Assembly: GCA_963821785.1 (NCBI GenBank)
Contig: CAWGFC010000005.1
Coordinates: 27,065-91,064 of the forward strand
Direction of reading: 5' to 3'
From: an uncultured Alphaproteobacteria bacterium
Lineage (GTDB): Bacteria > Pseudomonadota > Alphaproteobacteria > Rhizobiales > Xanthobacteraceae
DNA: 64,000 bases
A program made the position numbers and the translations under genes. This document shows, in pieces, positions 4,983 through 61,080 of the stretch (positions are counted from its first letter, which is position 1; each line of letters begins with the position of its first letter). The notes below the pieces were generated by a model. That model ran no database searches and had not been told where the DNA came from. It was given only the letters and a program-made list of their open reading frames with translations.

Positions 4983-5038
4983 GAAGTCCTCCCCTTCGGT
5001 TTTCTTTTATACCTCAATCCTCATCTTGAGGAGCAATC

Positions 5039-14632: not shown

Positions 14633-16302
<1,670 letters not shown>

Positions 16303-16305
16303 ATC

Positions 16306-17217
16306 ATGGCCGCAACCAACAAGTCGATGGATTGGGACAAACTGAAGGTGTTCCACGCCGCGGCGGAAGCGGGCTCCTTCACGCACGCCGGCGAGCGGCT
16401 CGGCCTGTCGCAGTCGGCGGTGTCGCGCCAGGTGTCGGCGCTGGAAGGCGAGTTGTCGGTTTCGCTGTTCCACCGTCACGCGCGCGGGCTGATTCTCACC
16501 GAACAGGGCGAACTGCTCTACCGCACGGCGCACGAAGTGTTCATGAAGCTCGAGGCGGCGCGCACCAAGCTCACCGACAGCCGCGAGCGGCCGAACGGCG
16601 AATTGAAGGTGTCGACCACGCCGGGCATCGGCGTGCATTGGCTGACGCCGCGACTCGGCGAATTCCTCGATCTTTATCCCGACATCCACATCACCTTGAT
16701 CACCACCGACGACGAGCTCGATCTCGCCATGCGCGAGGCCGACGTCGCCATCCGCCTACGCCAGCCGACCCAGCCGGACCTGATTCAGCGCAAATTGTTT
16801 TCGGTCCATTTCCATACCTATGCCTCGCCGGACTATCTCAAGCGTTTCGGTACGCCGCGCACGCACGACGACCTCGACAAGCATCGGATAATTCTGCTTG
16901 GCGGCAACGTGCCGGCGCATTTCGCCAACCGGCGCTGGCTGGTCGAAGTCGGCCGCAACGGCAAGGGTCCGCGCCAGCCGCAACTGACCATCAACAACGT
17001 GCTCGGCGTGCTGCGCGCCTGCCAGCGCGGCCTCGGCATCGCGATGCTGCCCGACTATCTGGTCGAGGAGAACGGCGGGCTGGTGCAGCTGCTCGGCGAG
17101 GCCGACACGCTCGCGCTCGATGCCTATTTTGTCTATCCGGAAGAGCTCAAAGCGGTGGCCCGTATCCAGGTATTTCGCGATTTCTTGGTCGCCAACGCAC
17201 AGCGCTGGCATTTCTAA
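16306..17217 (+). CDS. lsrB: LysR-type regulator, LsrB/VtlR ortholog
   Basis: MDWDKLKVFHAAAEAGSFTHA N-terminus; lrp/trxB-LysR synteny as in Sinorhizobium, Agrobacterium and Brucella. Confidence 0.85.
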   Translation: MAATNKSMDWDKLKVFHAAAEAGSFTHAGERLGLSQSAVSRQVSALEGELSVSLFHRHARGLILTEQGELLYRTAHEVFMKLEAARTKLTDSRERPNGELKVSTTPGIGVHWLTPRLGEFLDLYPDIHITLITTDDELDLAMREADVAIRLRQPTQPDLIQRKLFSVHFHTYASPDYLKRFGTPRTHDDLDKHRIILLGGNVPAHFANRRWLVEVGRNGKGPRQPQLTINNVLGVLRACQRGLGIAMLPDYLVEENGGLVQLLGEADTLALDAYFVYPEELKAVARIQVFRDFLVANAQRWHF

Positions 17218-17307
17218 TTTTTACGCAAAAGAAATCCCGCAGCGGCGATTCCGCATGTCCGATATGCGAACAATTCGCGACTGAGCCTCCAAACGATTTG
17301 CGATTCA

Positions 17308-17322
17308 GCATGGCTGACATGC
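17308..17322 (+). promoter_or_regulatory. LsrB/VtlR binding site
   Basis: GCAT-ggc-TG-aca-T fits GCAT-N3-TG-N3-T and lies in a GCATG-N5-CATGC dyad just upstream of -35 TTGTTT (17334) / 17 nt / -10 CATAAT (17357). Confidence 0.65.
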
Positions 17323-17368
17323 GGCGCATGGCGTTGTTTGCACGGCATGCGCGCCGCATAATGGTTTT

Positions 17369-17491
17369 TCGCTGTAACGCTGGATGTTTCCTCCCAGAGT
17401 CACTGGCGTGCAGCATGTTCCCCTCTGGAATATTGCCGGTCCCCACACCGGCAACCTTCTAAACCGGGCTCCTTACGGGGCCCGGTTTTTT
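17369..17491 (+). ncRNA. AbcR-like (alpha-r15 family) small RNA
   Basis: CUCCCA loop (17391-96), GUUCCCCUCUGG (17417-28), extra hairpin with CCCCAC loop, rho-independent terminator at 17461-91; directly downstream of lsrB. Confidence 0.8.
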
Positions 17492-18058
17492 ATCAGGCGC
17501 CACGATCGCCGCATGCGACGAGCGACGTTGAACGAAGTCGCGTGACGTCGGCGTTAACATCGAATCACGCCTACACGCGATCATCCGCGAACGCTCGCTT
17601 GAGAATAAATTGGAAGGATATGCGCCGCATTTTTGTAGGCGATGTTTTTGACGAAATCGTTTGCCGCTCGACCGCGCGCTGCTTTTTTCGAAACGATGGC
17701 ATCGGATCTGAGCGCGCGTTGCTGGACCGCTCCGGCTGGCCATCATTCCGGTGTCATTGGCCTGCCCTATCCTGGGGGTTCGGTCTGCCCGCCATCACGA
17801 AGAAGTCATCGGGGGAAAACAGGCAAAACTGGTCCGGGAACCGGCCGCATTAGCGGCCGTTGCATTAGGTTAGAGCCTGCGGCAATGCGGAAAAGCATGC
17901 GAATCCGGGATTTCGTGCCCCTGTGCAAAATAGCCACAGTTGGCGTTTGTTTGGTCCTGCCTCGTTGGGAAAAGCGTAACTAACACAGGACTATGGGATA
18001 GTATGCCCGCGAAATCGGAGGCCCTGGGCCCTCTGTTCAGCCACTAGGAGACGTTCTG

Positions 18059-20047
18059 GTGAAAAGTGCTCGATTTAACCGACTGTTGGCCACGACCGCG
18101 CTTGGCTTGGCGCTGGTTTTGGGAAGCCATGCCGGCATGGCGCAACAATCCCAACAGCAGATCAATTCGGCCGTGCCGATGCCGAATACCGACCAGTTGC
18201 CGCCGCTGACAGCCCAGGACGTTACGGGCGCGCCCGCCGCCGCCCCGAAGGCCGAAATCAAGCAAGACGCCGCGGAGCCGGTGAAGGCCGCGGCCGCGCC
18301 GGTTGCTGCCCCGGTGTCCGCCACGGCAGACAGCGTGGTCGCCGACCAGTTGCGCGACATGATCTCCGGCAAACTCGACCATATTGTCAGCCGCAAAGCC
18401 GACCGCGAGGGCGCGGAGCAGTTCTACAAGGCGCGCGACTACAAGCCTCTCTGGGTAAGCGATGGAGCAGCCCGCGCGCGTGCCAAGGCCGCGATCGCCT
18501 ATCTTGGCCAGGTCGACACCGATGGGCTTAACCCGATCGATTATCCAACTCCGGACTTCAAGACTGCGACCACCGCCAGCGCACTCGCCGAGGACGAGCT
18601 CAAGCTCACCGCTTCGGTGCTCACTTATGCGCGCCACGCTCAGATCGGGCAAATTCACTTCAGCCGCGTCGGCGCCGACATCGACTTTAAGCTGGTCGCG
18701 CCGGAGCCGGCCGAGGTGCTGGCCAAGCTTGCCAGCGCCGCCGACGTGGGCGCGGCGCTCGACGGCTACAATCCGCCACAACCGGAATTCAAGGCGCTCA
18801 AGGAAAAGCTCGCCGAACTGCGCAAGGGTGCGCTCGCGCCCAAGGCCGAGGAAGAAAAGAAGCCGGACCTCGTGCGCATCAGCGAAGGCAAGACCTTGCA
18901 CTTCGGCATGAAGGACCCGCGCGTCGTGCAACTGCGCAAGCGCCTCGACGTCGCCGGCGACAAGAACAACCCGCTCTATGACGACGCGGTGCGCGACGCA
19001 GTGAAGACGTTCCAGACCCAGTCCGACATCGACGTCGATGGCAATCTGGGACCGAACACCTTGCGCGCGCTCAACGGCGAGAAGAAGGTCGCGCACGGCC
19101 CGATCGCCGATCCGATCGATACCGTCATCGTCAATATGGAGCGTTGGCGCTGGTTCCCGCGCGATCTTGGCAATCCGCACGTGGTCGTCAACGTGCCGGA
19201 TTACACGCTCACGCTCTATAACGACGGCAAGCCTTATTGGAAGAGCAAGATCGTCGCCGGCAAGCCCGGCAAAGCGACGCCGATGACCAGCGCGGAGATG
19301 AAATTCATCACCGTCAATCCGACTTGGAACGTGCCGCCGTCGATCATCGAGAACGAATATCTGCCGGCCCTGCAGCAGGACCCAGACGCGCTCGACCGCA
19401 TCGGCCTCAAGCTGACGCAGGACGCCGACGGCACCGTCCACATTTCGCAGCCGCCGGGCGCCGGCAATGCGCTCGGCCGCATCCGCTTCAACTTCCCCAA
19501 TAAGTTCCTGGTCTACCAGCATGACACGCCGGACAAATATCTGTTCGCCAAGGACAAGCGCGCTTACAGCCACGGCTGCATGCGGGTGCAGAATCCACTG
19601 ATCTACGGCGAGAAGCTGTTGTCACTGGTCGATCCGCAAGGGCACTACACCGCCGCGAAACTTGAGAGCATGTTCGGCGGCAGCGAGATCAACATCAACT
19701 TCCCGAAGAACATCTGGGTGCACCTGACCTATCAAACCGCCTTCGTGGATGAGGACGGCAAACTTCAGTTCCGCGACGACGTCTACGGCCGCGACGCCAG
19801 GATGATCGCCATCCTCAAGGGCAGCGAGCGCAAGGTCGCCGACATCGCGATCGAGCGTAAGCCGGACGCCTCCTCGAAGCCGGTGCGCATGCCGGTCGGC
19901 ATGTATGGCGGCGGCAACAGCTACGGCAGCAACGGCGGCTTCTTCGACTTCCTGTTCGGCGGCCCGCATTCGGCGCCGCAGCCGACCTACCGGCGCCCGC
20001 CGGCCGACCAGCGCATGGGCAACAACGGACGCTACTACTTCCGCTAA
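18059..20047 (+). CDS. YcbB/LdtD-type L,D-transpeptidase with peptidoglycan-binding domain
   Basis: Signal peptide, DGNLGPNT PG-binding motif, VNVPDY, NPTWNVP and HDT...SHGCMRV catalytic motif. Confidence 0.93.
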   Translation: MKSARFNRLLATTALGLALVLGSHAGMAQQSQQQINSAVPMPNTDQLPPLTAQDVTGAPAAAPKAEIKQDAAEPVKAAAAPVAAPVSATADSVVADQLRDMISGKLDHIVSRKADREGAEQFYKARDYKPLWVSDGAARARAKAAIAYLGQVDTDGLNPIDYPTPDFKTATTASALAEDELKLTASVLTYARHAQIGQIHFSRVGADIDFKLVAPEPAEVLAKLASAADVGAALDGYNPPQPEFKALKEKLAELRKGALAPKAEEEKKPDLVRISEGKTLHFGMKDPRVVQLRKRLDVAGDKNNPLYDDAVRDAVKTFQTQSDIDVDGNLGPNTLRALNGEKKVAHGPIADPIDTVIVNMERWRWFPRDLGNPHVVVNVPDYTLTLYNDGKPYWKSKIVAGKPGKATPMTSAEMKFITVNPTWNVPPSIIENEYLPALQQDPDALDRIGLKLTQDADGTVHISQPPGAGNALGRIRFNFPNKFLVYQHDTPDKYLFAKDKRAYSHGCMRVQNPLIYGEKLLSLVDPQGHYTAAKLESMFGGSEININFPKNIWVHLTYQTAFVDEDGKLQFRDDVYGRDARMIAILKGSERKVADIAIERKPDASSKPVRMPVGMYGGGNSYGSNGGFFDFLFGGPHSAPQPTYRRPPADQRMGNNGRYYFR

Positions 20048-20068
20048 AGGATCATCGTTCGCTCACGA

Positions 20069-20099
20069 GAACGCCGGCGAGAGCATCGCCGGCGTTTTT
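20069..20099 (+). terminator. Intrinsic terminator
   Basis: acgccggcga-gagca-tcgccggcgt followed by tttt. Confidence 0.8.
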
Positions 20100-20327
20100 G
20101 CTATAGGAGGCCGATAATCGTTGGTTTTTCACAAGGCCCCTGACGCATCTGGGCGCCGGATTTCACTTGCACGCGACATTTCGTTCCAAACCATGCGCCA
20201 GCAATCGCTTTTTTTGCCATCGGTCTGGCGCTTCCAACCCTGCGGCGCGATGCGATCGAAATGGCGCACCGTTTCATTTTGGGCGTAAGACGGTCGTTAA
20301 ATGGGCCGTGAAGACTTGTGACGAGGT

Positions 20328-21104
20328 TCATGCTTCCCACACTTTCCACGGCGCCGCGTTCGATTCCCACAGTCGCGTCAATTGCTGCTTGTCGCGCAGG
20401 GTATCCATCGGCTGCCAGAAGCCGTCGTGTTGCCAGGCGAAAAGCTGATCATTGGCGGCGAGATTTTCCATCGGTTCTCGCTCCCAAACGGTCGTATCGT
20501 CCTTGACGTAGTCGAGCGCCGAGGGGTCGAGCACGAAAAAGCCGCCGTTAATTAGGCCGCTTGCGGTCTGTGCCTTCTCCTCGAAGGCGGTCACTTTGGC
20601 GCCCGAAAGCACGATGCTGCCGAAGCGCGCCGGCGGCCGCACGCAAGCAACCGTAGCTTTGCGGCCGTGTTTTTTGTGGAATGCGATCTCTGCCGCGACG
20701 TCGATATTGGCGAGGCCATCGCCATAGGTCATGCAGAACGGCGCGCCGTCATCGAGATAGGGGCGCACGCGCTTGAGCCGCCCACCGGTCATCGTCTGGT
20801 CGCCGGTATCCACCAGCGTGATCCGCCATGGCTCGTTTCGACGATGATGGTACTCGATGTTATTGCCGACCAAGTCGATCGTTACATCGGCGCTGTGCAG
20901 GTGGTAATTGGCGAAATATTCCTTGATCATGTAGCCCCTGTAGCCGAGACAGACGACGAAGTCGGTCACGCCGTGGTGCGTATAGAGCTTCATGATGTGC
21001 CAGAGGATAGGCCGCTCGCCGATCTCGATCATCGGCTTGGGACGGAGACCCGTTTCCTCCGCCAGGCGGGTGCCCATGCCGCCCGCAAGAATGACGCATT
21101 TCAT
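20328..21104 (-). CDS. rfbF: Glucose-1-phosphate cytidylyltransferase
   Basis: LAGGMGTRLAEET...PKPMIEIG, LGYRG, TGGRLKR, TYGDG, INGGFF and HDGFWQPMDTLRDK motifs. Confidence 0.95.
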   Translation of the reverse strand: MKCVILAGGMGTRLAEETGLRPKPMIEIGERPILWHIMKLYTHHGVTDFVVCLGYRGYMIKEYFANYHLHSADVTIDLVGNNIEYHHRRNEPWRITLVDTGDQTMTGGRLKRVRPYLDDGAPFCMTYGDGLANIDVAAEIAFHKKHGRKATVACVRPPARFGSIVLSGAKVTAFEEKAQTASGLINGGFFVLDPSALDYVKDDTTVWEREPMENLAANDQLFAWQHDGFWQPMDTLRDKQQLTRLWESNAAPWKVWEA

Positions 21105-21372
21105 GCATCAGCTCTCTTTGTCCCGCGCCGCCAAGAAGCGGGGCCGCTGTTCGAAGTTGCGCGGTCTCGCAGACGAATTTTTAATGAAGCGCGGCATGCT
21201 ATAACCTGTTTCCCCGGCCCCTCCAAGTGGGTGCTAAGTGGCGCGTTTGCGCCGAGCGAAAGCGCGATGCTATGCACTCCGCTGCTTTTCGCGGAGGTGG
21301 ATCCGTCCCCAAAATAAGTCATTGATGTAGAATGTTAATTATTCTGTTGTGGGCTAAGAGGAGGGCGGTTTT

Positions 21373-21384
21373 GGCGGTAGCTCA
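21373..21384 (+). promoter_or_regulatory. ops-like element upstream of rfbG
   Basis: GGCGGTAGCtca (ops consensus GGCGGTAGnnTG), preceded by a second GGGCGGT. Confidence 0.3.
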
Positions 21385-21417
21385 GGAAGAACGAGGTTTA
21401 GGCGGAAGGGATTCCGG

Positions 21418-22488
21418 ATGAATGACTTTTGGACCGGCCGACGCGTGTTGGTGACAGGACATACGGGATTCAAGGGCGCCTGGCTTTGTTTGTGGCTTGA
21501 GCGCTTGGGGGCCGAGGTCGCGGCTTTCGCTCTGCCGCCGCAAACCGAGCCGAATCTTTATCGGCTGCTGTCTCCCTGGCCCGGCCAGCATCATCGCATC
21601 GCCGACCTGCGCGATTCGGCCGCTGTTACCGAAGCTGTGCGTGACGCGGCGCCGGAAGTGATCTTCCATCTCGCGGCGCAATCGCTGGTGCGCACGTCTT
21701 ACAGCGATCCGCTTAACACCTACGCTAGCAATGTTATGGGCACGCTGCATTTGCTGCTGGCGGCTCGCGATACGCCGGGTGTGCGGGCCGTCGTGGTCAC
21801 GACCACCGACAAGGTCTATGAGAACGACTTTAGCGGCGTCGCGTTTCGCGAGCACGACCGTCTCGGTGGCAAGGACCCCTACAGCGCGTCGAAAGCCTGC
21901 GCCGAGATCCTCACCGGTTCGTTTCGCGCAAGTTTCCTGTCGGGCAAGCGCCCCGCGGTCGCTACTGTGCGCGCCGGAAATGTGGTCGGCGGCGGCGACT
22001 GGTCGGACGACCGCCTGGTGCCGGACGTCGTGCGGGCTATCGCCGCAGGCCGCAAGGTCGCATTGCGCTATCCCGATGCGGTGCGCCCCTGGCAGCATGT
22101 GCTTGAGCCGTTGCGCGGCTATCTGGACCTGGCCGAGCGGCTGGTGCGCGAGCCTGCATCGATGCCGCCGGCGCTGAACTTCGGACCCGATCCGGGCAGT
22201 TGGCTCACCGTCGCGCAGGTGGCCGACGTGCTGGGCAAGGCGCTTGGCGTCGGGCCTGGCTGGGAGCGAGCCTCAGGCATCGCGCCGCCGGAGGCCGCAA
22301 CGCTCACGCTATCCTCGGGACTGGCGCGAAAAGTGCTGGGATGGAAGCCGTTCCTGTCGATGCAGGCGACCATTGATTGGACAGCCGATTGGTACAAGGC
22401 GCATCGCGCGGGCGGCTCGATGAAGACGGTGACGCTCGAGCAGATCGCCCGTTACGAAAAGCTCTGCCTGGAAGCGTCCGCCGCATGA
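21418..22488 (+). CDS. rfbG: CDP-glucose 4,6-dehydratase
   Basis: VTGHTGFKGAWL, HLAAQSLVR, TTDKVYEN, DPYSASK and RPWQHVLEPL motifs. Confidence 0.95.
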   Translation: MNDFWTGRRVLVTGHTGFKGAWLCLWLERLGAEVAAFALPPQTEPNLYRLLSPWPGQHHRIADLRDSAAVTEAVRDAAPEVIFHLAAQSLVRTSYSDPLNTYASNVMGTLHLLLAARDTPGVRAVVVTTTDKVYENDFSGVAFREHDRLGGKDPYSASKACAEILTGSFRASFLSGKRPAVATVRAGNVVGGGDWSDDRLVPDVVRAIAAGRKVALRYPDAVRPWQHVLEPLRGYLDLAERLVREPASMPPALNFGPDPGSWLTVAQVADVLGKALGVGPGWERASGIAPPEAATLTLSSGLARKVLGWKPFLSMQATIDWTADWYKAHRAGGSMKTVTLEQIARYEKLCLEASAA

Positions 22489-23729
22489 CCGTCCTCTCGC
22501 CTCCGCGGTGCCGTTTTTGCCATGAGCCGTTACGGGCCACCCTTGTCGATCTTGGCAACACGCCACTCGCCAACAGCTACCTTACCCGCGAGCAACTCGC
22601 CGCTCCGGAGCCAAGCTTCCCGCTGCATGCCAGGGTGTGTGCGGCATGCCGGTTGGTGCAGGTCGACGATGTTGCGGCGCCTGGCGACATATTCGGGCAC
22701 TATGCCTATTTCTCTTCGTTTTCCGCCTCTTGGGTCGAGCACGCACGCCGTTTCGCGGAAATGGCTGCGAAGCGTTGGCGTCTCGGCGCCGACAGTCTCG
22801 TCGTCGAGGTGGCGAGCAATGACGGTTATCTGCTGCGCCATTTCGTCGCGATGGGCGTGCCGGTCCTGGGAATAGAGCCAGCAGAAAATGTCGCCGCATC
22901 CGCGCGCGAGGCCGGAGTGACGACCGAGGTCTGCTTTTTCGGGCGTGCGACGGCAGAGCGATTGCGTGCGCAAGGGCGCACTGCCGATCTCATCGTCGGC
23001 AACAATGTGTTCGCGCACGTTCCCGACATAAATGATTTTGTCGAAGGCTTTGCCGTCCTGCTCAAGCCCGATGGCATGGTCAGTCTCGAATTCCCGCATG
23101 TCATGAAGCTGATCGAGATGACTCAGTTCGACACCATCTACCACGAGCACTTTTCGTATCTGTCGCTCTTTACAACGGAAAAGATCTTGGCCGCCCACGG
23201 GCTCAGAGTGTTCGATGTCGCTGAATTGCCGACGCATGGCGGCAGCCTCCGGGTGATGGCCGCGCGGGCGACAAGTCAAGCGCATGCCGAAGGCGAAGGG
23301 CTTGCCATGGTGCGGCGCGATGAAGCCGTGGCCGGCGTCGACAGCGATGCTTGTTATGCTGGGTTCGAGCCGAAGGTGCGCGCCGTGCGTGATGCACTGC
23401 TGGACTTCCTGCGTGGCGCCAAAACCGCGGGTAAAACCGTCGCCGCCTATGGCGCGGCGGCCAAGGGCAATACGCTGCTCAATTATTGCGGCATCGGCAC
23501 CGATCTAATCGACTATGTGGTCGACATCAGTCCGCACAAACAGAGCCTGTTCCTGCCCGGCAGCCGCTTGCCCATCCACGCGCCGTCGCGCTTGGCGGAG
23601 ACGAAGCCGGATTATGTGCTGATCCTGCCGTGGAACCTGAAGGATGAAATCATCGCGCAGATGCAGCATATTCGCGACTGGGGCAGCTGTTTTGTGATCA
23701 CCATTCCAACTCTGACCGTTCTTCCTTGA
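22485..23729 (+). CDS. NDP-hexose C3-methyltransferase-like SAM enzyme
   Basis: N-terminal CxxC...CxxC, VEVASNDG, YHEHFSY, THGGSLR and YGAAAKGNTLLN motifs; ATGA overlap with rfbG. Confidence 0.88.
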   Translation: MTVLSPPRCRFCHEPLRATLVDLGNTPLANSYLTREQLAAPEPSFPLHARVCAACRLVQVDDVAAPGDIFGHYAYFSSFSASWVEHARRFAEMAAKRWRLGADSLVVEVASNDGYLLRHFVAMGVPVLGIEPAENVAASAREAGVTTEVCFFGRATAERLRAQGRTADLIVGNNVFAHVPDINDFVEGFAVLLKPDGMVSLEFPHVMKLIEMTQFDTIYHEHFSYLSLFTTEKILAAHGLRVFDVAELPTHGGSLRVMAARATSQAHAEGEGLAMVRRDEAVAGVDSDACYAGFEPKVRAVRDALLDFLRGAKTAGKTVAAYGAAAKGNTLLNYCGIGTDLIDYVVDISPHKQSLFLPGSRLPIHAPSRLAETKPDYVLILPWNLKDEIIAQMQHIRDWGSCFVITIPTLTVLP

Positions 23730-23745
23730 GGCGAAAGGATAGCCC

Positions 23746-24276
23746 GTGCAGTTGGAGCGCACTGCGATCGAGGGCCTGATCGAAGTCGAAGTGACGCCGC
23801 ATGAAGACGAGCGCGGCATCTTTGCGCGCACCTATGACGAAGAGGTATTCGCCCGCGCCGGCCTGCCGACACATTGGCCGCAATGCAACACGTCCTGGAA
23901 CCGGCGGCGCGGCACGCTGCGCGGCATGCATTTCCAGGCGGCGCCAAAGGAGGAGCCGAAATTGGTGCGCTGCACGGCCGGTCGCGTGTTCGACGTGGCG
24001 GTCGATCTGCGCCGCGGTTCATCGACCTATCTTGGCTGGGTCGGTATCGAACTCTCGGCTGAAAAACGTAACGCGCTGTTCATTCCGGCGGGGCTGGCGC
24101 ACGGATTCCTCACCTTGGAGGACAGCACGGAGGTCTACTACCAGATGGGCGCGGTCTACGACGGCGGCCTCCAGCCCGGCGTGCGTTGGAACGATCCGGC
24201 CTTCGCCATTGCCTGGCCGTTCGCACCGACCGTAGTCTCCGCACGCGATGCCGGCTATGCAGATTACGCGCCATGA
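23746..24276 (+). CDS. RmlC/RfbC-family NDP-4-keto-6-deoxyhexose 3,5-epimerase
   Basis: DERGIFAR, GTLRGMHFQ, DVAVDLR and AHGFLTL motifs. Confidence 0.92.
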   Translation: MQLERTAIEGLIEVEVTPHEDERGIFARTYDEEVFARAGLPTHWPQCNTSWNRRRGTLRGMHFQAAPKEEPKLVRCTAGRVFDVAVDLRRGSSTYLGWVGIELSAEKRNALFIPAGLAHGFLTLEDSTEVYYQMGAVYDGGLQPGVRWNDPAFAIAWPFAPTVVSARDAGYADYAP

Positions 24277-25163
24277 AGCGCATTCTGCTCACAGGCGTCA
24301 CCGGCTTTATCGGCGCACATTGCCTGCGCCTTATCCTGAACGGCGATTACGACGAGATTCATGTAGTTACCAGGTCCGGAAGACAACCATCCGAATCTGG
24401 CACCACATGGCACGCGGCCGATCTTCGCGTTGCCGCCGAGGCGACGCGGATCATCGAAACAGTTCGCCCGACGCACCTATTTCACGCCGCGTGGATTGCA
24501 ACACCGGGCGTCTATCTCTCGTCGCCCGAAAATGTGGACTGGATGCAGGCTGGCATCGCGCTCGTCCGCGCCTTCGCCGAGCAAGGCGGCCAACGCTTCG
24601 TCGGGGTCGGCAGCAGCGCCGAATATGCGCCATCTGGCGTGCCTTGCGATGAGGATCGAACGCCGTTGCACCCCGCGTCTATTTATGGACATTGCAAGCT
24701 AGCTCTGTGGCATGCGGTGCAAGCCCTGGCATATCGCTACAAGATGCAGGCCGCGTGGGGTCGCGTATTTCTGCCTTTTGGTCCGGGCGATCATCCGGCC
24801 CGGCTGATCCCGTTCGCCCTCGCAGCGTTGCGCGCGCGCAAGCCGCTGCCCTTGTCACAAGGAGAACAATTGCGTGATTTTGTCTATGCCCCGGACGCTG
24901 CCAAATTGTTAGTTGGGCTTTTCGGTGCACCCAAAACCGGTGCGTTCAACATCGGCAGCGGCGAAGCTCGATCGGTGCGTTCCGTCATTGAAGCCATTGC
25001 CGACCGCCTTGGAGCGCGTGACTGTCTTCGTTTTGGCGAGTTGGCCCCGCGGGCATGGGAGCCACCCGTACTTGTGGCGAACATGCAAAAGGTGCGCGAT
25101 CGTCTGGGTCTTGAAGCTCACACAACCATGTCCGAGGCGCTCGATGGATTGATCGCTTCATGA
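24273..25163 (+). CDS. NAD-dependent epimerase/4-ketoreductase
   Basis: GVTGFIG, GSSAEY and YGHCK (YxxxK) motifs. Confidence 0.85.
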   Translation: MKRILLTGVTGFIGAHCLRLILNGDYDEIHVVTRSGRQPSESGTTWHAADLRVAAEATRIIETVRPTHLFHAAWIATPGVYLSSPENVDWMQAGIALVRAFAEQGGQRFVGVGSSAEYAPSGVPCDEDRTPLHPASIYGHCKLALWHAVQALAYRYKMQAAWGRVFLPFGPGDHPARLIPFALAALRARKPLPLSQGEQLRDFVYAPDAAKLLVGLFGAPKTGAFNIGSGEARSVRSVIEAIADRLGARDCLRFGELAPRAWEPPVLVANMQKVRDRLGLEAHTTMSEALDGLIAS

Positions 25164-25185
25164 TCTCACCGTTCCCGGTTGGTTA

Positions 25186-26742
25186 ATGCTCAGTCCGCAC
25201 GAGGGAGTACATTCAATTCGTTCGCTTTCCCAAAATATCTTGTCAGCGGGGTTCTCGCGCTTTTGGCAAGCGGCGCTGCAGCTATTGATCACGCCCTTTA
25301 TTGTGCACTATCTCGGGCCAAAGTCTTACGGGCTTGTTGGCTTCTATGCGACCATCTCCCTGTTCCTGGCCTTTCTCGATCAAGCGGTTAGCCCAACGCT
25401 GACCCGCGAATTGGCGCGTTCGTCGCATCAAGCTGACGCCGGTAGGAGCCTGCGTTGTCTTTTGCGCTCGCTGGAATTGCTGTCGGGCGGTATCGCCGTC
25501 ATTCTCGGCGCAACGGTCGCGGGAGGAGCGCCGCTCATCGCGCGATATTGGCTTGTGAACAGCGGGATTCCCGAATCCGAGCTTATCGAAGCGATCCGCC
25601 TGATGGGACTAAGCCTCGCCTGTCAGTGGCCGGCCACGCTGTATAGCGGCGGCTTTGTCGGACTACGGCGGCAGGACCTTCTGGTGCCCGTGCGCGTGAC
25701 TGTCATTACAGTGCAGTCGGTCGGCGCAGTGCTGCTGCTTTCCAAAGTTTCGGCTTCGCCACTTTTGTATTTTGCTTGGATGGCCATCACATCGGCATTG
25801 CTGAGCCTCATCCTGCGAGCATTTCTTTGGCGAATGATGCCGTCCAGCAAAGAGCCCGCCCGGTTTGATCCGGACGTGCTGCGAACGATCTGGCGGTTCG
25901 CCACCGGCAACCTCATAATCGGATTGACGGTCGCCCTGTTGACGCAATCCGGCGGGCTTATCGTAGCGAAATACTGCGCGTTGGAGCAACTCGCGGCCTA
26001 CACCTTGGCGGTGAGTTTTGCCGGGCAGGTCTCGACAATCCTCGTGCAGCCGATTTCAACGACGCTGATGCCGCACTTCGCGCATCTGACATCGCAACGG
26101 GACGCCGCCCGGTTAGCCCGCGAATATCACCGCTGGAGCCAGATTTTTTCCGCGTTGGTCTTACCAATCACCGGCACTTTGATTGTATTCGGGAAGCCAC
26201 TATTACAAGTCTGGCTCGGAAGCGCGTCGCCGCTTGTAAATCCGGTTTCCGAACTGCTTCCATGGATTGCGATCGGGACGCTTCTCAATACGCTGGTGAC
26301 CCCGTCCTATTTCCTGCAGATCGCCAATGGCTGGACCAGCCTTATCGTGACCATGAATTTCATCGCGCTCGCCGTGATTCTGCCCGCCTTAGTGATCGCA
26401 GTGCCCCGTTATGGCCCCATCGCAGCGGCCGTGTGCTGGATCGGTATCAATCTTCCTTATTATGTGATCATGGTACCGTACATGCACCGGCGCCTCCTGC
26501 CGAATGATCTATGGGCATGGTGCGGCCGTGACACGCTGTTGCCGTTAGCTGTCGTCGGGATCATCTATGGCGGCGCGCGGCTATTGACGCCGTCCGACGT
26601 GCCGCAATTTGCCGGCCTCGCAGCCGCCGTTGTCGTAGCCGCGCTTGCATGGGCTGCGCTGCTCGTCGCACTACCTCAAGTCCGCGCCGATGCATTTGGC
26701 ATGCTGAATATAGTCAGGCTGAAGTTTACAAGGGCTGGCTAG
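25186..26742 (+). CDS. Wzx-type polysaccharide flippase
   Basis: Multi-TM protein; TPFIVHYLGPKSYGLVG N-terminal pattern; sugar-gene context. Confidence 0.85.
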   Translation: MLSPHEGVHSIRSLSQNILSAGFSRFWQAALQLLITPFIVHYLGPKSYGLVGFYATISLFLAFLDQAVSPTLTRELARSSHQADAGRSLRCLLRSLELLSGGIAVILGATVAGGAPLIARYWLVNSGIPESELIEAIRLMGLSLACQWPATLYSGGFVGLRRQDLLVPVRVTVITVQSVGAVLLLSKVSASPLLYFAWMAITSALLSLILRAFLWRMMPSSKEPARFDPDVLRTIWRFATGNLIIGLTVALLTQSGGLIVAKYCALEQLAAYTLAVSFAGQVSTILVQPISTTLMPHFAHLTSQRDAARLAREYHRWSQIFSALVLPITGTLIVFGKPLLQVWLGSASPLVNPVSELLPWIAIGTLLNTLVTPSYFLQIANGWTSLIVTMNFIALAVILPALVIAVPRYGPIAAAVCWIGINLPYYVIMVPYMHRRLLPNDLWAWCGRDTLLPLAVVGIIYGGARLLTPSDVPQFAGLAAAVVVAALAWAALLVALPQVRADAFGMLNIVRLKFTRAG

Positions 26743-26765
26743 CTCATGGCCTACGCGGCCGCCTT

Positions 26766-27802
26766 TTAGCCCTGCCGTTTCCAGATACGATTGAAGAAAA
26801 GTCGATGACAGATCGTTCGGTCTAGCACGAGGCTCCAGTTCGAGCCCAGCATGTAGTCGTCGGCAGTCAGATCCGTTCCGTCGGTAGGATTCTTCCATGA
26901 CTCCCACTGCCTAATGAAAATATGGCCGCGCGACAGTAGCTGGAACTCGGAGAGATACAGGTACGCCTGATTCTGGCGGTCTCGGCAGGGTGCTGATCGT
27001 AAGTACGACGTCAAAATAGGAATCGGGAGATTTCCGGAGTCGTTGGGCGTAAGCAGCGCGGCCGAAGCCTTCGCCATCTCGTCTTTGACATCTTCGATGT
27101 GATCGATGTGACGGAAGTGGAACACTGGATCTGGGCCAAGGGTTTGATCAAGGTACCACTGTGCCACACCGAGCGCAGGCGGATATCGAAGATGAAGTAT
27201 TGTCCCGGTAACATAGTTAAGGTGGTATGGGCGAGGCGACCATAGCCCGCGCCCAGCTCTGCAATGCGTGGGCTCGAAGATGCTTTCGGCAAATCTGCAA
27301 TAAGGTTGCACTCGATGATCGAGTTGGCGAGATCCTGGCTCAAAACCCGGTCGCCGACCATGACACGGAATGGGTTTCCAATTTCCGGTTCCGCGATTTT
27401 ATCATGAAGGTGATGCCGGTCATGCGCGACCATAATCGTCCAGACGAAGCTGACGTAGAGGCGGTACATGAGCCGCTGCAGCCGGCTCAGCCCGATCCGC
27501 TCGTCACTCGTGGTCAAGCGCAAGTATTCCGTATCTTGCAGCCGACTGACGAACGGTAACAGGTTCGGGTGGCGGCACCACCTAATGAATGCGTGGCGAA
27601 ATAGCGGGTGCGCCGGGCCGTCAATGAACCAGTTGAAATAATTCTGAGAGACCGTGCGTTTGAAATTGGCAAGCCCTTCGATCTCCAGCATGCGGGCGTT
27701 CTTGCTGCTGAGGTCTTGCCAGAACGCGGACGGCAGGAAAATTGGATCGTCCGCCTTGAGTTCGTCGACCATAGCATTGAAGGCATCGATCTCTGCCATC
27801 AC
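26766..27802 (-). pseudogene. Putative sugar O-methyltransferase, frameshifted (about four single-base deletions)
   Basis: PSAFW...NFKRTV...ELGAGYGRLA...FDI|PPALGVAQWYL...LLTPN|...PDSYFDVVLTISTLP|...RQNQAYLYLSEF is spread across three frames. Confidence 0.75.
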
Positions 27803-28189
27803 GGGTCTATTCCTCGACCAAACAATGACAATTCTCGATCATTGGAATGCTGCAAAACCGCTGCAGGCCACTGTGCGCACAGGTCTTGTTCTCCGTCGAA
27901 CATCGCAGCATCGCTCCGTGCATAATTCTCTTTCGGGTCGCAGCGAATTCTTCTTCAAGGTCTGCAATAGCTCGTTTCGCCCATTGGCCCAATAGCGTGT
28001 GCCGCCGCGATTGCGCCGGATCGCGGCACAATGTTATGCAGTCCACGGCTGTGGAAGCGCCCTGCTACGCGGATTCATAACTATTTGAATCGCAATGATT
28101 TATCCTCTCGCCGGCGGCAATGCTCAGGTGGGAGACGGAGAGTCGATGGACGCCCGACAAGAAGGAGAACTGGACGCGAGGTCGCTTGT

Positions 28190-30233: not shown

Positions 30234-30280
30234 CTAGACTAGCTCCCCAAATTTTGGCCGGCACATATAACGTAGCGTGT

Positions 30281-31351: not shown

Positions 31352-31501
31352 TTTCGGATCAGGATCGCCGTAGATTTCGCTTGAATTGAAAAAGAGAAAC
31401 CCTTCAAGCCCTTTGTTTTTCCGTGCCAGCTCCAGCAGATTTTTGACACCTTGCACCGCGCTTTCGATCGTCTCCAGCGGATACTTCATGTAATAGACAG
31501 G
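31340..31501 (-). pseudogene. Internal fragment of an NAD-dependent epimerase/decarboxylase (UXS-like)
   Basis: PVYYMKYPLETIESAVQGVKNLLELARKNKGLEGFLFFNSSEIYGDPDPKSVPT; both ends are missing. Confidence 0.75.
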
Positions 31502-31701
31502 CCAAGCCTTATTACGCGAATTCCAGCATCGCTCAAATGGTGGGCCCAGCATCCTGTGCCCTTAAGATAGCCTATGGTAACATTATGACCCGCAGCCTTT
31601 TGATGTGCCGTCAATTCGACGAGATGATTCTCGCAACCGCCACGGTTCAAGGTCGTAGTGACATGCATGATTGCCCAGGGCGGCCGACTAAACATTTTCA
31701 T
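31486..31701 (-). pseudogene. 5' fragment of a GT4 glycosyltransferase
   Basis: MKMFSRPPWAIMHVTTTLNRGGCENHLVEL...GHNVTIGYL...LSDAGIRVIRLGL, then fused out of frame to the epimerase fragment. Confidence 0.75.
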
Positions 31702-31757
31702 ACGCCGGATCCCGCCGAAGTTGATTGAACATAGACATTTTAACTCGAGATACTCGA

Positions 31758-52175: not shown

Positions 52176-52204
52176 CGCGACGTCCAGGGTTGCGCTTGAA
52201 GGCC

Positions 52205-55193: not shown

Positions 55194-55449
55194 TTGCATC
55201 CTCCCATTAGACTTTTTTGGCGACGGGAATACCGCCACGTTTGAATGGCGCCCGGACAATAGCCAACGCCGTCCGTCGCGCCCGGTTGGACCATACCCGC
55301 AGCGGCTGCGCAGGGCCATAGGCCTGTCATGAATTTCAGCCACAAGTCCGTGGCGGCAATCAACAATTCCCGGACTGGCCAGCGCGGAACGATGGTCTTA
55401 TAACCCCGGCCATCATCGTTCCTTCCGCGCCCTTCAGGAGCTTCTCAAC

Positions 55450-60166: not shown

Positions 60167-61051
60167 ATGGCCGGGCAAGCCAAGAAGACGATCCTCACGG
60201 TCGCAGTGACCGGCAACCTCACCACGGTGCAGCAGAACCCCGCGCTGCCGTGCACGCCGGAGCAGATCGCCAATGCCGCACTCGAATCGGCCAAGATCGG
60301 CGCTTCGGTCGCGCATATCCATGTCCGCCATCCGGACGGACGGCCGAGCATGGAGCTTGCGCACTATCGCGAAGTGGTCGAGCGCATCCGCGACAAGAAC
60401 TCCGAGCTGATCATCAACCTCACCACCGGCCCGGGCGGCCGCTTCGTGCCGGGCAAGGATGACCCGCGCGTCGCCGGGCCGGGCTCGACCCTCATTCATC
60501 CGCTCAAGCGCGTCGAGCACATCGTCGCGCTCAAGCCGGACATCGCCACGCTCGACCTCAACACCATGTGGTCGGGCTCAGCCGCGGTGATCAACCCGCC
60601 CGACAACGTGACGATCATGGCCAAGGCCATCCAGGAGGCCGGCTCGAAGCCCGAGCTGGAGGTGTTCGACTCCGGCGACATCCAGCTCGCCAACGTCCTG
60701 CTCGAGCAAGGCGTGCTCAAGCGTCCGCCGCTGTTTCAGATCGTGATGGGCGTGCGCTACGGCTTCATCTCGACGCCGCAGACACTGATCTATGCGCACT
60801 CGCTCCTGCCGCAGGACGCAATGTGGGCGGCCTTCGCCATCGGCCGCTGGGAATTTCCCATGCTGGCGACGGCATGGTTTCTCGGCGGTCACGTGCGCGT
60901 CGGCATGGAAGACAATGTCTACATCGGCAAAGGCAAATTGACGCCGAGCAATGCGGCGCTGTGCGAGAAGGCCGTGCGCATTCTCGACGACATGGGCGCC
61001 GAGCTCGCCACCGCAAAGGAAGCGCGCGCCATTCTCGGCCTGCGCGCGTGA
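60167..61051 (+). CDS. BKACE/Kce (DUF849) beta-keto acid cleavage enzyme
   Basis: AVTG, AHIHVR, INLTTG, PELEVFD and HVRVGMED motifs. Confidence 0.92.
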   Translation: MAGQAKKTILTVAVTGNLTTVQQNPALPCTPEQIANAALESAKIGASVAHIHVRHPDGRPSMELAHYREVVERIRDKNSELIINLTTGPGGRFVPGKDDPRVAGPGSTLIHPLKRVEHIVALKPDIATLDLNTMWSGSAAVINPPDNVTIMAKAIQEAGSKPELEVFDSGDIQLANVLLEQGVLKRPPLFQIVMGVRYGFISTPQTLIYAHSLLPQDAMWAAFAIGRWEFPMLATAWFLGGHVRVGMEDNVYIGKGKLTPSNAALCEKAVRILDDMGAELATAKEARAILGLRA

Positions 61052-61080
61052 CGCTCGCTGACATCATGGAGGACCATCAC

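What the first reader, a model, noticed from the sequence alone, without database searches (positions are those of the whole stretch)
17300..17491. Unannotated AbcR-like sRNA with its LsrB/VtlR activator site and a third anti-SD loop
Directly after lsrB, where AbcR1/2 lie in Agrobacterium and Sinorhizobium, are an LsrB-type box (GCAT-N3-TG-N3-T), a -35/-10 pair, and then four hairpins. Hairpin 1 exposes CUCCCA (AbcR motif M1), hairpin 2 carries GUUCCCCUCUGG (M2), hairpin 3 (perfect 8-bp stem) exposes CCCCAC, and hairpin 4 is a terminator. AbcR sRNAs silence ABC-transporter mRNAs through these anti-SD motifs. Here there is a single copy with an apparent extra seed, in an organism rich in Bug and TRAP binding proteins that are plausible targets. 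This may extend the family's range and target repertoire.
Basis: partly seen in the sequence, partly recalled or inferred. Interest (0 to 1): 0.72.

Follow-up and report, generated by a model that had tools for sequence, protein, structure and literature searches.

The report
Divergent AbcR1 small RNA beside lsrB
Just downstream of the redox regulator gene lsrB, this soil bacterium (Pseudolabrys) carries a conserved ~122-nt regulatory RNA gene that is a divergent, database-invisible relative of the AbcR1 RNAs that silence nutrient-uptake genes in rhizobia and Brucella; it is a real gene of a known kind with one lineage-specific twist.

Summary
At 17308-17491 (+), directly after a trxB-lsrB operon, lie a 15-bp palindromic LsrB/VtlR box, a -35/-10 pair and a ~122-nt RNA ending in a terminator.

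The block is conserved after lsrB in 80 of 81 Pseudolabrys-type sequences. 16 of 29 base pairs show compensatory changes.

It is an AbcR1 (alpha-r15) ortholog:
- M1 (CUCCCA) lies in the SL1 loop and M2 (GUUCCCCUCUGG) is an exact match in the linker.
- It has the family's three-hairpin plan.
- Box, 12 nt, -35, 17 nt, -10 is the same layout as in Sinorhizobium AbcR1.
- Its position downstream of lsrB is shared by 227 of 231 copies across Hyphomicrobiales.

Rfam's ar15 model scores only 16.2 bits (threshold 40) and finds none of 20 related loci, so the RNA goes unannotated.

- "Hairpin 2" has no comparative support.
- "Hairpin 3" is the family's SL2, not an extra hairpin. What is new is its nearly invariant C-rich loop, CCCCAC. 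Other Xanthobacteraceae also have C-rich loops, while classical AbcRs have A/U-rich ones. Nothing shows this loop is a third anti-SD seed.

No usable transcript data exist. Target evidence is suggestive only.

The parts
15193..16302 (+). trxB (thioredoxin-disulfide reductase). The likely true start is near 15337. First gene of the trxB-lsrB operon.
   Evidence: TIGR01292, 417 bits against a cut-off of 343. ORF list. A trxB-lsrB operon is described as the constant context of lsrB in Rhizobiales (PMC11975290).
16306..17217 (+). lsrB/vtlR ortholog, a LysR-type redox-responsive regulator. Inferred activator of the sRNA promoter.
   Evidence: Full-length match to A. tumefaciens LsrB structure 9HH1, 380.8 bits, E = 5e-113, against 139.8 bits for the next LysR chain. 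It starts 4 nt after the trxB stop.
17308..17322 (+). LsrB/VtlR-type box GCATGGCTGACATGC, a palindrome of form GCATG-N5-CATGC that contains the published GCAT-N3-TG-N3-T.
   Evidence: Unique exact match in the window. A box of this type is present in 79 of 80 Pseudolabrys-type copies, and the box-to--35 gap is exactly 12 nt in 67 of 70. The same box and spacing occur in Sinorhizobium and Rhizobium AbcR1 promoters. Published consensus: PMC7486931. Binding itself was not tested.
17334..17362 (+). Promoter: -35 TTGTTT (17334-17339), 17-nt spacer, -10 CATAAT (17357-17362).
   Evidence: TTGNNN-N16-18-CATANT is present in 71 of 80 copies, 64 of them with a 17-nt spacer. The generic scanner did not call it (8 of 12 consensus matches).
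17370..17491 (+). AbcR1-type sRNA, about 122 nt. The 5' end is inferred (7 nt after the -10, and position 1 of the ar15 model). The 3' end is in the T-run.
   Evidence: ar15 aligns over its full length, 1-112, at 17370-17491. Model R1 scores 131.6 bits here and at most 10.6 bits elsewhere in the window. Covariation.
17371..17414 (+). SL1. Helices 17371-17374/17411-17414 and 17377-17383/17403-17409. The 19-nt loop 17384-17402 carries aSD1/M1 (CCUCCCAG 17390-17397, CUCCCA 17391-17396).
   Evidence: RNAalifold consensus. 5 of the 11 SL1 pairs have double changes. CCUCCCAG is nearly invariant. M1 as defined in PMC5461406.
17417..17428 (+). aSD2/M2 GUUCCCCUCUGG, a single-stranded linker between SL1 and SL2.
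   Evidence: Identical to the ar15 consensus GUUCCCCUCUG. Nearly invariant in 79 copies. Unpaired in the consensus structure. The alternative hairpin is unsupported.
17433..17454 (+). SL2. 8-bp stem here (7 bp in the consensus), with the lineage-specific C-rich loop CCCCAC at 17441-17446.
   Evidence: 6 of 7 pairs have double changes, and the closing pair is C-G in 47 and U-A in 19 sequences. Nearly all of the 80 Pseudolabrys-like copies have a loop built on CCCCAC. Xanthobacteraceae-like copies are also C-rich, and other Hyphomicrobiales have A/U-rich loops. It sits where canonical AbcR SL2 sits.
17461..17491 (+). Rho-independent terminator: stem 17461-17472/17477-17488, loop UUAC, T-run to 17491.
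   Evidence: Fold. 11 consensus pairs, 99.2% paired, 5 with double changes. Conservation ends here. The simple terminator scan did not list it.
55194..55223 (-). Candidate target (inferred): translation-initiation region of the TRAP dctP gene. UGGGAGGA is an 8-nt perfect complement of aSD1.
   Evidence: Pfam DctP, 157 bits. Best aSD1 duplex of 42 genes, -19.7 kcal/mol. Not tested experimentally.
4983..5012 (-). Candidate target (inferred): translation-initiation region of a TctC/Bug receptor gene. The RBS is AAGGGGAGGA.
   Evidence: Pfam TctC, 174 bits. aSD1 rank 6, aSD2 rank 2 and SL2-loop rank 2 of 42.
61051..61080 (+). Candidate target (inferred): translation-initiation region of a second TctC/Bug receptor gene.
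   Evidence: Pfam TctC, 226.6 bits. aSD1 rank 4 of 42.

Best explanation
This is the Pseudolabrys ortholog of AbcR1 (alpha-r15 family): a stand-alone gene for a trans-acting small RNA of about 122 nt.

Inferred mechanism:
1. LsrB is encoded immediately upstream in the trxB-lsrB operon. It binds the palindromic box centred about 55 bp upstream of the start site and activates a sigma-70-type promoter.
2. The transcript folds into SL1, a single-stranded linker, SL2 and a terminator.
3. The two anti-Shine-Dalgarno seeds are CCUCCCAG in the SL1 loop and GUUCCCCUCUGG in the linker. They pair with ribosome-binding regions of mRNAs for periplasmic solute-binding proteins and other transport or metabolic genes. 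This blocks translation and promotes decay, probably with Hfq.
4. In this organism the likely targets include TTT (TctC/Bug) and TRAP (DctP) binding proteins.

SL2 has been remodelled in this lineage and carries a nearly invariant C-rich loop, CCCCAC, whose role is unknown.

Shown here: conservation, structure, motifs, promoter layout, synteny and LsrB orthology.
Inferred: transcription, LsrB dependence, Hfq involvement and the targets.
For: Orthology of the regulator:
- 9HH1 (A. tumefaciens LsrB), 380.8 bits, full length.
- trxB sits directly upstream, matching PMC11975290.

Conservation:
- 80 of 81 related sequences carry the block from box to T-run.
- It ends at the terminator.

Structure:
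- Three consensus helices. 97% of cells are paired. 16 of 29 pairs have double changes against 5.7 +/- 1.4 in shuffles (0 of 500) and 2-8 when partners are slid.

Family signatures:
- ar15 aligns end to end, with UUCCUCCCAG and GUUCCCCUCUG matching exactly.
- M1 and M2 are as defined experimentally in Brucella and Agrobacterium.
- The reciprocal model R1 finds canonical AbcR1/2 over their full length: Brucella 46.6 bits, Sinorhizobium 31.5 and 26.9, Agrobacterium 30.4. It finds none of 9 non-alphaproteobacterial loci that carry the motifs by chance.
- ar15 scores fall in a gradient: 112, 64, 44, 31, then no hit, then 16 bits.

Synteny:
- 227 of 231 copies that have lsrB in the held locus lie on the same strand, 0-1.5 kb downstream.

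Promoter:
- Box, 12 nt, TTGNNN, 17 nt, CATANT is shared with Sinorhizobium AbcR1.
- Loci chosen by this promoter pattern alone have an R1 hit starting about 5-9 nt after it.
- LsrB/VtlR dependence of AbcR1 is established in S. meliloti and A. tumefaciens.

Autonomy:
- In L066 an EamA gene lies between lsrB and the sRNA, and the sRNA keeps its box.

Targets:
- The three binding-protein genes in the window rank 1, 4 and 6 of 42 for aSD1 pairing (p = 0.0014). For the 16S anti-SD control they rank 6, 15 and 16 (p = 0.10).
Against: - Rfam's ar15 model scores 16.2 bits, far below its gathering score of 40, with E = 1.6 even in a 951-nt search.
- No transcript evidence. Only low-depth metatranscriptome contigs from related strains hold the sequence, and they run past both ends.
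- The generic promoter scan does not call the promoter, and the short box alone is not above chance.
- The loci used for the reciprocal model search were picked because they contain both motifs, so that test is not independent. partly remedies this.
- The target signal rests on three genes. After subtracting general SD strength it falls to p = 0.056.
Confidence: 0.85

Rival explanations
1. One reading: a three-seed AbcR variant in which the SL2 loop CCCCAC is a third functional targeting module (a C-rich seed) that pairs with G-rich ribosome-binding regions and widens the regulon.
For: - The loop is nearly invariant while its stem covaries. Nearly all of the 80 copies have a CCCCAC core, and 6 of 7 stem pairs have double changes.
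- The C-rich loop is lineage-specific. It is also C-rich in other Xanthobacteraceae and A/U-rich in classical AbcRs.
- M1 and M2 were themselves characterised by a shared UCCC motif, and the window reads UCCCCAC.
- In Devosia an LsrB-type promoter drives an sRNA with three CCUCCUCC stretches, so seed number does vary between lineages.
- The TctC gene at 4982 has GGGGA in its RBS and ranks 2 of 42 for this loop.
Against: - The complement GUGGGG lacks the GGAG core of an SD.
- Pairing with RBS regions in the window is no better than for shuffled seeds: 23 of 30 shuffles do as well or better.
- The binding-protein genes rank 2, 12 and 17 (p = 0.056).
- A 6-nt loop closed by a GC-rich stem is a small seed.
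- There is no experimental precedent for SL2 acting as an independent AbcR seed. Hairpin 2 is only implicated in an extended M2 interaction with atpH.
Confidence: 0.25
2. The SL2 loop is conserved for a reason other than mRNA pairing, for example as a protein contact (Hfq rim, ProQ-like or RNase-related), or for folding or stability. The RNA then works as a classical two-seed AbcR1.
For: - Loop invariance shows selection on the sequence but does not say for what.
- No RBS preference was detected.
- The SL2 position and the three-hairpin plan are conserved across the family, while the loop sequence is free to vary elsewhere.
Against: - No protein-binding data of any kind.
- C-rich single-stranded loops are typical pairing seeds in other sRNAs (general knowledge, not tested here).
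Confidence: 0.4
3. It is not an independent gene but the 3' UTR or terminator region of the trxB-lsrB operon, or a cis-acting leader of the downstream L,D-transpeptidase gene.
For: - Same strand as lsrB, starting 150 nt after its stop codon.
- No clear lsrB terminator was found in between.
- One metatranscriptome contig joins the lsrB end to the sRNA of a related strain.
Against: - A conserved box, -35 and -10 with fixed spacing lie between lsrB and the RNA.
- The unit, with its box, stays intact when an EamA gene separates it from lsrB.
- A strong terminator ends it 567 nt before the transpeptidase gene, and the DNA just after it is not conserved.
- The ldt homolog is seen downstream in only 41 of 80 held loci, whereas the RNA follows lsrB across families that have different downstream genes.
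Confidence: 0.04
4. The region encodes a small protein (ORF 17384..17545, 53 aa) rather than a non-coding RNA.
For: An ATG-initiated ORF overlaps the element.
Against: - The ATG is present in only 17 of 79 aligned copies.
- The spacing between the conserved motifs is spread over all three residues modulo 3 (33, 26 and 18 copies).
- Conservation follows base pairs and loops, not codons.
Confidence: 0.01

Closest known systems
AbcR1 (SmrC16/SmelC412 in S. meliloti; AbcR1 in A. tumefaciens; AbcR sRNAs of Brucella abortus); Rfam RF02345 ar15
   Same: - Position just downstream of lsrB on the same strand.
- LsrB/VtlR box with the same box, 12 nt, -35, 17 nt, -10 layout.
- About 120 nt, with three hairpins.
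- M1 CUCCCA in the SL1 loop, and M2 GUUCCC(CUCUG) unpaired between SL1 and SL2.
- Rho-independent terminator.

   Different: - Fails the Rfam threshold (16.2 bits against 40).
- The SL1 stems have different sequence.
- The linker after M2 is longer and stays unpaired: GGAAUAU here, and GGAAGAU in most other Pseudolabrys-type copies. In classical AbcR1 the GGAGGUU forms the SL2 stem.
- SL2 is a GC-rich hairpin with an invariant CCCCAC loop instead of an A/U-rich loop.
- One copy at the locus instead of the AbcR1/AbcR2 tandem.

AbcR-like sRNAs of Stappiaceae, Kaistia, Pleomorphomonas, Pseudoxanthobacter and other Xanthobacteraceae (found here; I found no description of them in the searchable literature)
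   Same: - Same lsrB synteny and box.
- Linker GUUCCCCUCUGGAAGGUG followed by a separate SL2.
- In Xanthobacteraceae-like MAGs the SL2 loop is also C-rich: CCCCCA, CCCCGC, CCCGC or UCCCGC.

   Different: - The Pseudolabrys copies have GGAAGAU or GGAAUAU instead of GGAAGGUG, and a fixed CCCCAC loop.
- The marine genera have non-C-rich loops.

NfeR1 / alpha-r14-type sRNAs with several CCUCCUCCC loops, and the Devosia sRNA seen here
   Same: Multi-seed anti-SD sRNAs of Hyphomicrobiales that repress binding-protein mRNAs. In Devosia an LsrB-type promoter of identical layout drives an RNA with three CCUCCUCC stretches.
   Different: Those seeds are true anti-SD repeats (CCUCC). CCCCAC is not. There is no sequence homology to the window RNA beyond the promoter.
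GcvB of enterobacteria (functional analogue only)
   Same: A trans-acting sRNA that represses many periplasmic binding-protein mRNAs. The comparison is drawn in PMC7143759.
   Different: Unrelated sequence, a G/U-rich seed and a different regulator. No homology is claimed.

Membership tests
AbcR / alpha-r15 sRNA family (Rfam RF02345 ar15) | Scores at or above the Rfam ar15 gathering threshold (40 bits) | tested here: not met
   16.2 bits, E = 1.6, although the alignment spans model positions 1-112. None of 20 related loci pass. Control gradient: Sinorhizobium 112 and 107, Brucella 63.9, Pleomorphomonas 44.3, Roseibium 30.9, other Xanthobacteraceae no hit. This is an operational cut-off of one seed alignment, not a biological property.
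AbcR / alpha-r15 sRNA family (Rfam RF02345 ar15) | [quoted passage not shown] | tested here: met
   CUCCCA at 17391-17396 lies in the 19-nt SL1 loop. The stem is supported by covariation and the loop motif is nearly invariant. Definition.
AbcR / alpha-r15 sRNA family (Rfam RF02345 ar15) | M2/aSD2 (GUUCCC / UUCCCCUC) single-stranded between hairpins 1 and 2 | tested here: met
   GUUCCCCUCUGG at 17417-17428 is identical to the family consensus. It is unpaired in the consensus structure, and the competing hairpin is unsupported.
AbcR / alpha-r15 sRNA family (Rfam RF02345 ar15) | Three-hairpin architecture of about 115-125 nt ending in a Rho-independent terminator | tested here: met
   SL1, SL2 and terminator in the RNAalifold consensus, about 122 nt. 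Same plan as the canonical copies folded and described in PMC4152367.
AbcR / alpha-r15 sRNA family (Rfam RF02345 ar15) | Encoded next to lsrB/vtlR | tested here: met
   The RNA starts 153 nt after the lsrB stop, on the same strand. 227 of 231 family copies that have lsrB in the held locus share this arrangement.
AbcR / alpha-r15 sRNA family (Rfam RF02345 ar15) | Detectable homology to canonical members by a reciprocal structure-aware search | tested here: met
   Model R1, built from 79 Pseudolabrys-type copies, finds canonical AbcR1/2 over their full length with E from 1e-8 to 5e-3, and none of 9 chance-motif loci. It also finds them in loci picked by promoter pattern only. E-values are rough because calibration was shortened.
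AbcR / alpha-r15 sRNA family (Rfam RF02345 ar15) | Expressed as a discrete Hfq-associated transcript that represses binding-protein mRNAs | tested here: inconclusive
   Only low-depth metatranscriptome contigs from related strains were found, and they extend beyond both ends. Hfq binding and regulation cannot be tested with these tools. In-window target ranks are only suggestive.
LsrB/VtlR-activated promoters | VtlR/LsrB box GCAT-N3-TG-N3-T upstream of the -35 | tested here: met
   GCATGGCTGACAT at 17308-17320. Extended palindrome conserved in 79 of 80 copies, at a fixed 12 nt from the -35. Same box in Sinorhizobium and Rhizobium AbcR1 promoters. Consensus from PMC7486931.
LsrB/VtlR-activated promoters | LsrB binds the box and is required for transcription | not testable with these tools
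   Needs EMSA or footprinting and an lsrB mutant. It has been shown for AbcR1 in S. meliloti and A. tumefaciens.
LsrB/VtlR (LysR-type regulator of Rhizobiales) | Closest to characterised LsrB rather than to other LysR regulators, and in an operon after trxB | tested here: met
   9HH1, 380.8 bits, against 139.8 for the next LysR structure. trxB ends 4 nt upstream. Operon rule: PMC11975290. NCBIfam has no LsrB-specific model, and all its hits are below their cut-offs.

The most novel reading that the evidence does not exclude
In Pseudolabrys and related Xanthobacteraceae, which are abundant free-living soil bacteria, the ancestral LsrB-AbcR1 module has acquired a third targeting element, the invariant C-rich SL2 loop. 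Its regulon has shifted from ABC-type to TTT/Bug and TRAP binding proteins. That would link redox sensing by LsrB to organic-acid uptake in oligotrophic soil bacteria.
Probability: 0.2. Interest if true: 0.6.

Novelty: new variant of a known kind. Interest (0 to 1): 0.45.

Why it matters
- It shows the lsrB-AbcR1 module is not confined to the plant- and animal-associated Rhizobiaceae, Brucellaceae and Phyllobacteriaceae where it was studied. The module appears ancestral across Hyphomicrobiales. It is present in Stappiaceae, Kaistia, Pleomorphomonas, Chelatococcus, Pseudoxanthobacter, Pseudorhodoplanes, Rhodoplanes and Pseudolabrys.
- The current Rfam model misses whole lineages of it, which is an annotation gap that can be fixed.
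- Comparative data sharpen the LsrB operator to a 15-bp palindrome at a fixed 12 nt from the -35.
- The lineage-specific invariant C-rich SL2 loop, and the good aSD1 matches to TRAP and TTT binding-protein RBSs, give concrete hypotheses about how an sRNA regulon is rewired in soil oligotrophs.
- It is not a new kind of system.

Tried and rejected
- **Rfam at the gathering threshold** on the window and on 20 related loci gave nothing for this element. The permissive scan gave ar15 below threshold, plus chance hits (sX11 on the terminator, mir-586 on the promoter inverted repeat, PVX_3, SorX, Atu_C8), all rejected.
- **Generic promoter and terminator scanner** called neither the promoter nor the sRNA terminator. 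I relied on comparative evidence instead.
- **Transcript evidence.** Two run searches and two read-laying runs found only DNA metagenomes and low-depth metatranscriptome contigs from divergent strains that extend beyond both ends. No boundaries could be drawn.
- **Coding potential of ORF 17384..17545** was rejected.
- **BjrC1505** as a possible Bradyrhizobium-lineage name for this RNA gave only a weak sub-threshold overlap in Pleomorphomonas, and nothing in the window or in the other Xanthobacteraceae loci tested.
- **Global seed-versus-shuffled-seed test** on RBS regions did not discriminate in a 64-kb sample.
- **Literature.** The AbcR review (PMC5752129) and the VtlR conservation paper (PMC5846693) are not held, so the published statement of the family's range could not be read. 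One broad literature query returned nothing relevant.
- **Bradyrhizobium clade.** This suggests that clade lacks the exact motifs, but does not prove it.
Full report
**What is there.** The window comes from a Pseudolabrys-type bacterium. The LysR protein found 80 related loci, almost all Pseudolabrys or unnamed Hyphomicrobiales MAGs, with 88-99% protein identity.

ORF 15193-16302 is thioredoxin reductase trxB (TIGR01292, 417 bits). ORF 16306-17217 starts 4 nt later and is a LysR regulator. It matches the solved A. tumefaciens LsrB structure 9HH1 end to end (380.8 bits, E = 5e-113), against 139.8 bits for the next LysR chain. A trxB-lsrB operon is described as the constant context of lsrB in Rhizobiales (PMC11975290). 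The gene is therefore an lsrB/vtlR ortholog.

Downstream of it the sequence shows:
- GCATGGCTGACATGC at 17308-17322
- TTGTTT at 17334-17339
- CATAAT at 17357-17362
- CUCCCA at 17391-17396
- GUUCCCCUCUGG at 17417-17428
- a hairpin at 17433-17454 with loop CCCCAC
- a GC-rich hairpin plus T-run at 17461-17491

The single-sequence fold has four hairpins (-57.9 kcal/mol, z = -5.54).

**Is it more than chance?** The short published box GCAT-N3-TG-N3-T is not significant alone: 12 matches in the window against 8.45 expected. The generic sigma-70 and terminator scanner called neither the promoter nor this terminator. Conservation is the decisive evidence.
- The block is present in 80 of 81 Pseudolabrys-type sequences. 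The exception is a contig that ends just after lsrB.
- Similarity begins at the box and ends at the T-run. The next ~280 nt match only 1-2 of 80 loci.
- A palindrome-like box is present in 79 of 80 copies, and 61 match GCATG-N5-CATGC exactly.
- TTGNNN-N16-18-CATANT is present in 71 of 80 copies, 64 of them with a 17-nt spacer.
- The gap from box to -35 is exactly 12 nt in 67 of 70.

**Structure.** On 79 aligned copies (A1) RNAalifold predicts three helices:
- SL1, whose large loop holds CCUCCCAG
- a 7-bp hairpin with loop CCCCAC
- the terminator

97% of cells pair. 16 of 29 pairs show changes on both sides, against 5.7 +/- 1.4 in column shuffles (0 of 500 reach it) and 2-8 when partners are slid by 1-3 columns. 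The CCCCAC hairpin has 6 of 7 pairs with double changes. Its closing pair is C-G in 47 sequences and U-A in 19.

None of its 5 core pairs has a double change, and one pair is broken in 52 sequences. GUUCCCCUCUGG is therefore best read as a single-stranded linker.

The overlapping 53-aa ORF is not conserved. Its ATG is present in 17 of 79 copies, and the spacing between motifs is spread over all residues modulo 3.

**What it is.** Rfam's ar15 (AbcR) model aligns over its full length at 17370-17491, with UUCCUCCCAG and GUUCCCCUCUG matching exactly. It scores only 16.2 bits against a gathering score of 40. The whole-window scan at the curated threshold finds only a tRNA, and none of 20 related loci pass.

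This failure reflects the reach of the model, as a control shows:

| Source | ar15 score (gathering score 40) |
|---|---|
| Sinorhizobium | 112 and 107 bits |
| Brucella | 63.9 bits |
| Pleomorphomonas | 44.3 bits |
| Roseibium | 30.9 bits |
| Kaistia, Pseudoxanthobacter, Pseudorhodoplanes, a Xanthobacteraceae MAG | no hit at E <= 1 |

All of these loci nevertheless carry the two motifs after lsrB.

Model R1, built from the Pseudolabrys copies, gives the reciprocal result:
- It finds one copy in the window (131.6 bits). The next full-length match scores 10.6 bits.
- It finds canonical AbcR1/2 over their full length: Brucella 46.6, Sinorhizobium 31.5 and 26.9, Agrobacterium 30.4 bits.
- It finds none of nine non-alphaproteobacterial loci that have the motif pair by chance.

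Those loci were chosen by motif, so I also scanned for the promoter layout alone. In the loci found that way, R1 hits begin a few nucleotides after the pattern. In S. fredii the pattern ends at 1580 and the hit starts at 1585. Chelatococcus, Ensifer, Allorhizobium and Mycoplana behave the same way.

Synteny is nearly universal. 227 of 231 copies that have an lsrB homolog in the held locus lie on the same strand, 0-1.5 kb downstream of it.

The Sinorhizobium terangae AbcR1 promoter reads GCATGGCTGTCATG, 12 nt, TTGCTG, 17 nt, CATACC. This is the same layout as the window. The tandem AbcR2 copy lacks the box.

M1 (CUCCCA, first hairpin loop) and M2 (GUUCCC, between hairpins 1 and 2) are the experimentally defined AbcR seeds (PMC5461406; PMC4152367; PMC8844928). 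LsrB/VtlR directly activates AbcR1 in S. meliloti and A. tumefaciens.

I conclude that this is the AbcR1 ortholog of Pseudolabrys.

**What differs.** Canonical AbcR1 has three hairpins, and its SL2 is formed by GGAGGUU...AACCUUC with an A/U-rich loop. The window's 'hairpin 3' sits in that same place, so it is SL2 and not an extra hairpin. In this lineage the linker after M2 stays unpaired. SL2 is a separate GC-rich hairpin whose loop is fixed.

| Group (by LsrB identity to the window) | SL2 loop |
|---|---|
| Pseudolabrys-like (>= 88%) | CCCCAC core in nearly all of 80 copies |
| Xanthobacteraceae-like (75-88%) | mostly C-rich: CCCCCA 19, CCCCGC 6, CCCGC 5, UCCCGC 3 of 53 |
| Other Hyphomicrobiales (< 75%) | A/U-rich tetraloops |

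A loop that stays invariant while its stem covaries is under selection for sequence. What for is unknown.

**How it most likely works.** Inferred from the family:
1. LsrB binds the palindrome, centred about 55 bp upstream of the inferred start at about 17370, and activates transcription.
2. The ~122-nt RNA exposes aSD1 and aSD2.
3. These pair with ribosome-binding regions of mRNAs for periplasmic binding proteins and lower their translation and stability, probably with Hfq.

Within the window I annotated the likely genes with Pfam. Exactly three are periplasmic binding proteins: TctC at 4982 (-), DctP at 55193 (-) and TctC at 61081 (+).

| Seed | Ranks of the three genes (of 42) | Rank-sum p |
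|---|---|---|
| aSD1 (SL1 loop) | 1, 4, 6 | 0.0014 |
| 16S anti-SD (control) | 6, 15, 16 | 0.10 |
| aSD1 minus 16S anti-SD | 2, 7, 22 | 0.056 |
| CCCCAC loop | 2, 12, 17 | 0.056 |

The DctP RBS UGGGAGGA is an 8-nt perfect complement of aSD1. For the CCCCAC loop, shuffled seeds pair as well. The target inference is therefore plausible for aSD1 and open for the loop.

**Autonomy and rivals.** In L066, and likewise in L053, L062 and L076, lsrB and the sRNA lie about 1.2 kb apart. In L066 the gap holds a 351-aa EamA-family gene, and the sRNA still carries its box. This argues against a mere lsrB 3' UTR. The strong terminator and the non-conserved DNA after it argue against a leader for the L,D-transpeptidase gene at 18059.

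**Expression.** No isolate RNA-seq exists for this organism in the indexed runs. Soil and root metatranscriptome assemblies contain the sRNA of related strains at depth 2-4. Those contigs continue beyond both ends, so they neither confirm nor refute a discrete transcript.

**Novelty.** The searchable literature describes AbcR sRNAs in Rhizobiaceae, Brucellaceae and Phyllobacteriaceae. I found nothing on Pseudolabrys or the Xanthobacteraceae-type variant. The main review could not be read. I rate this a new variant of a known kind: a true ortholog that fails the curated model and has a remodelled SL2 with a lineage-specific invariant loop. Interest is moderate.

Noticed in passing
L316:4728-4950 (Devosia albogilva); also other Devosia loci L309-L359: An LsrB-type promoter of identical layout (GCATGGCTGACATG, 12 nt, TTG, 20 nt, CATA) drives a different sRNA in Devosia, with three CCUCCUCC-type anti-SD stretches and a terminator. 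Model R1 does not recognise it, apart from one weak hit. LsrB-driven sRNAs seem to differ in seed number between families.
   Followed up: partly
L311:5360-5800 (Chelatococcus sambhunathii): Two tandem AbcR-like copies, each preceded by its own GCAT..CATG box. In Sinorhizobium and Rhizobium only the first copy has the box. The SL2 loops are CUUG and UUCG, not C-rich.
   Followed up: partly
window 17308-17322 and the promoters: The published VtlR/LsrB consensus GCAT-N3-TG-N3-T is one reading of a 15-bp palindrome, GCATG-N5-CATGC. Many Pseudolabrys copies carry the CAG form, which matches the published consensus only on the opposite strand. The box sits at a fixed 12 nt from the -35.
   Followed up: yes
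L066:3458-4513 (gap of the same size in L053, L062, L076; larger gap in L056): In some Pseudolabrys genomes lsrB and the sRNA lie 1.2 kb or more apart. In L066 the gap holds an EamA-family transporter gene with a histidine-rich C-terminal tail.
   Followed up: partly
window 26000-32000 (wider region 20000-32000): A lower-GC stretch (0.53-0.56 against about 0.64 elsewhere) with low GC3. It lies next to a sugar-nucleotidyltransferase-like ORF at 20328-21104. It may be an acquired polysaccharide gene cluster.
   Followed up: no
window 17900-18000: A stretch upstream of the L,D-transpeptidase gene (18059-20047) is conserved in about 12-17 of 80 loci, while the DNA between it and the sRNA terminator is not. 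It may be the ldt promoter or 5' UTR.
   Followed up: no
window 36169-36245 (-): tRNA-His (GUG). It is the only Rfam match in the window at the curated threshold.
   Followed up: yes
window 15344-15356 (-): A match to the short box (GCATGTGTGGTCT) lies at the probable trxB start. A. tumefaciens LsrB autoregulates trxB-lsrB, but about 8 such matches are expected by chance in the window.
   Followed up: no
window 50817-55193 (-): A dctP-dctQ-dctM TRAP transporter operon (55193-52205) is followed by a malonyl-CoA decarboxylase gene (51776-50817). The dctM start also ranks high for aSD1 pairing (-17.3 to -20.7 kcal/mol).
   Followed up: partly
The best-studied clade of this family may lack the element or carry a more divergent form.
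   Followed up: no
window 17303-17377: An imperfect inverted repeat spans the promoter (CATGCGGCGCATG ... CATGCGCGCCGCATAATG) and produced a spurious mir-586 match. CATGCG after the box and CGCAT at the -10 are conserved, so a second LsrB contact near the -10 is conceivable.
   Followed up: no
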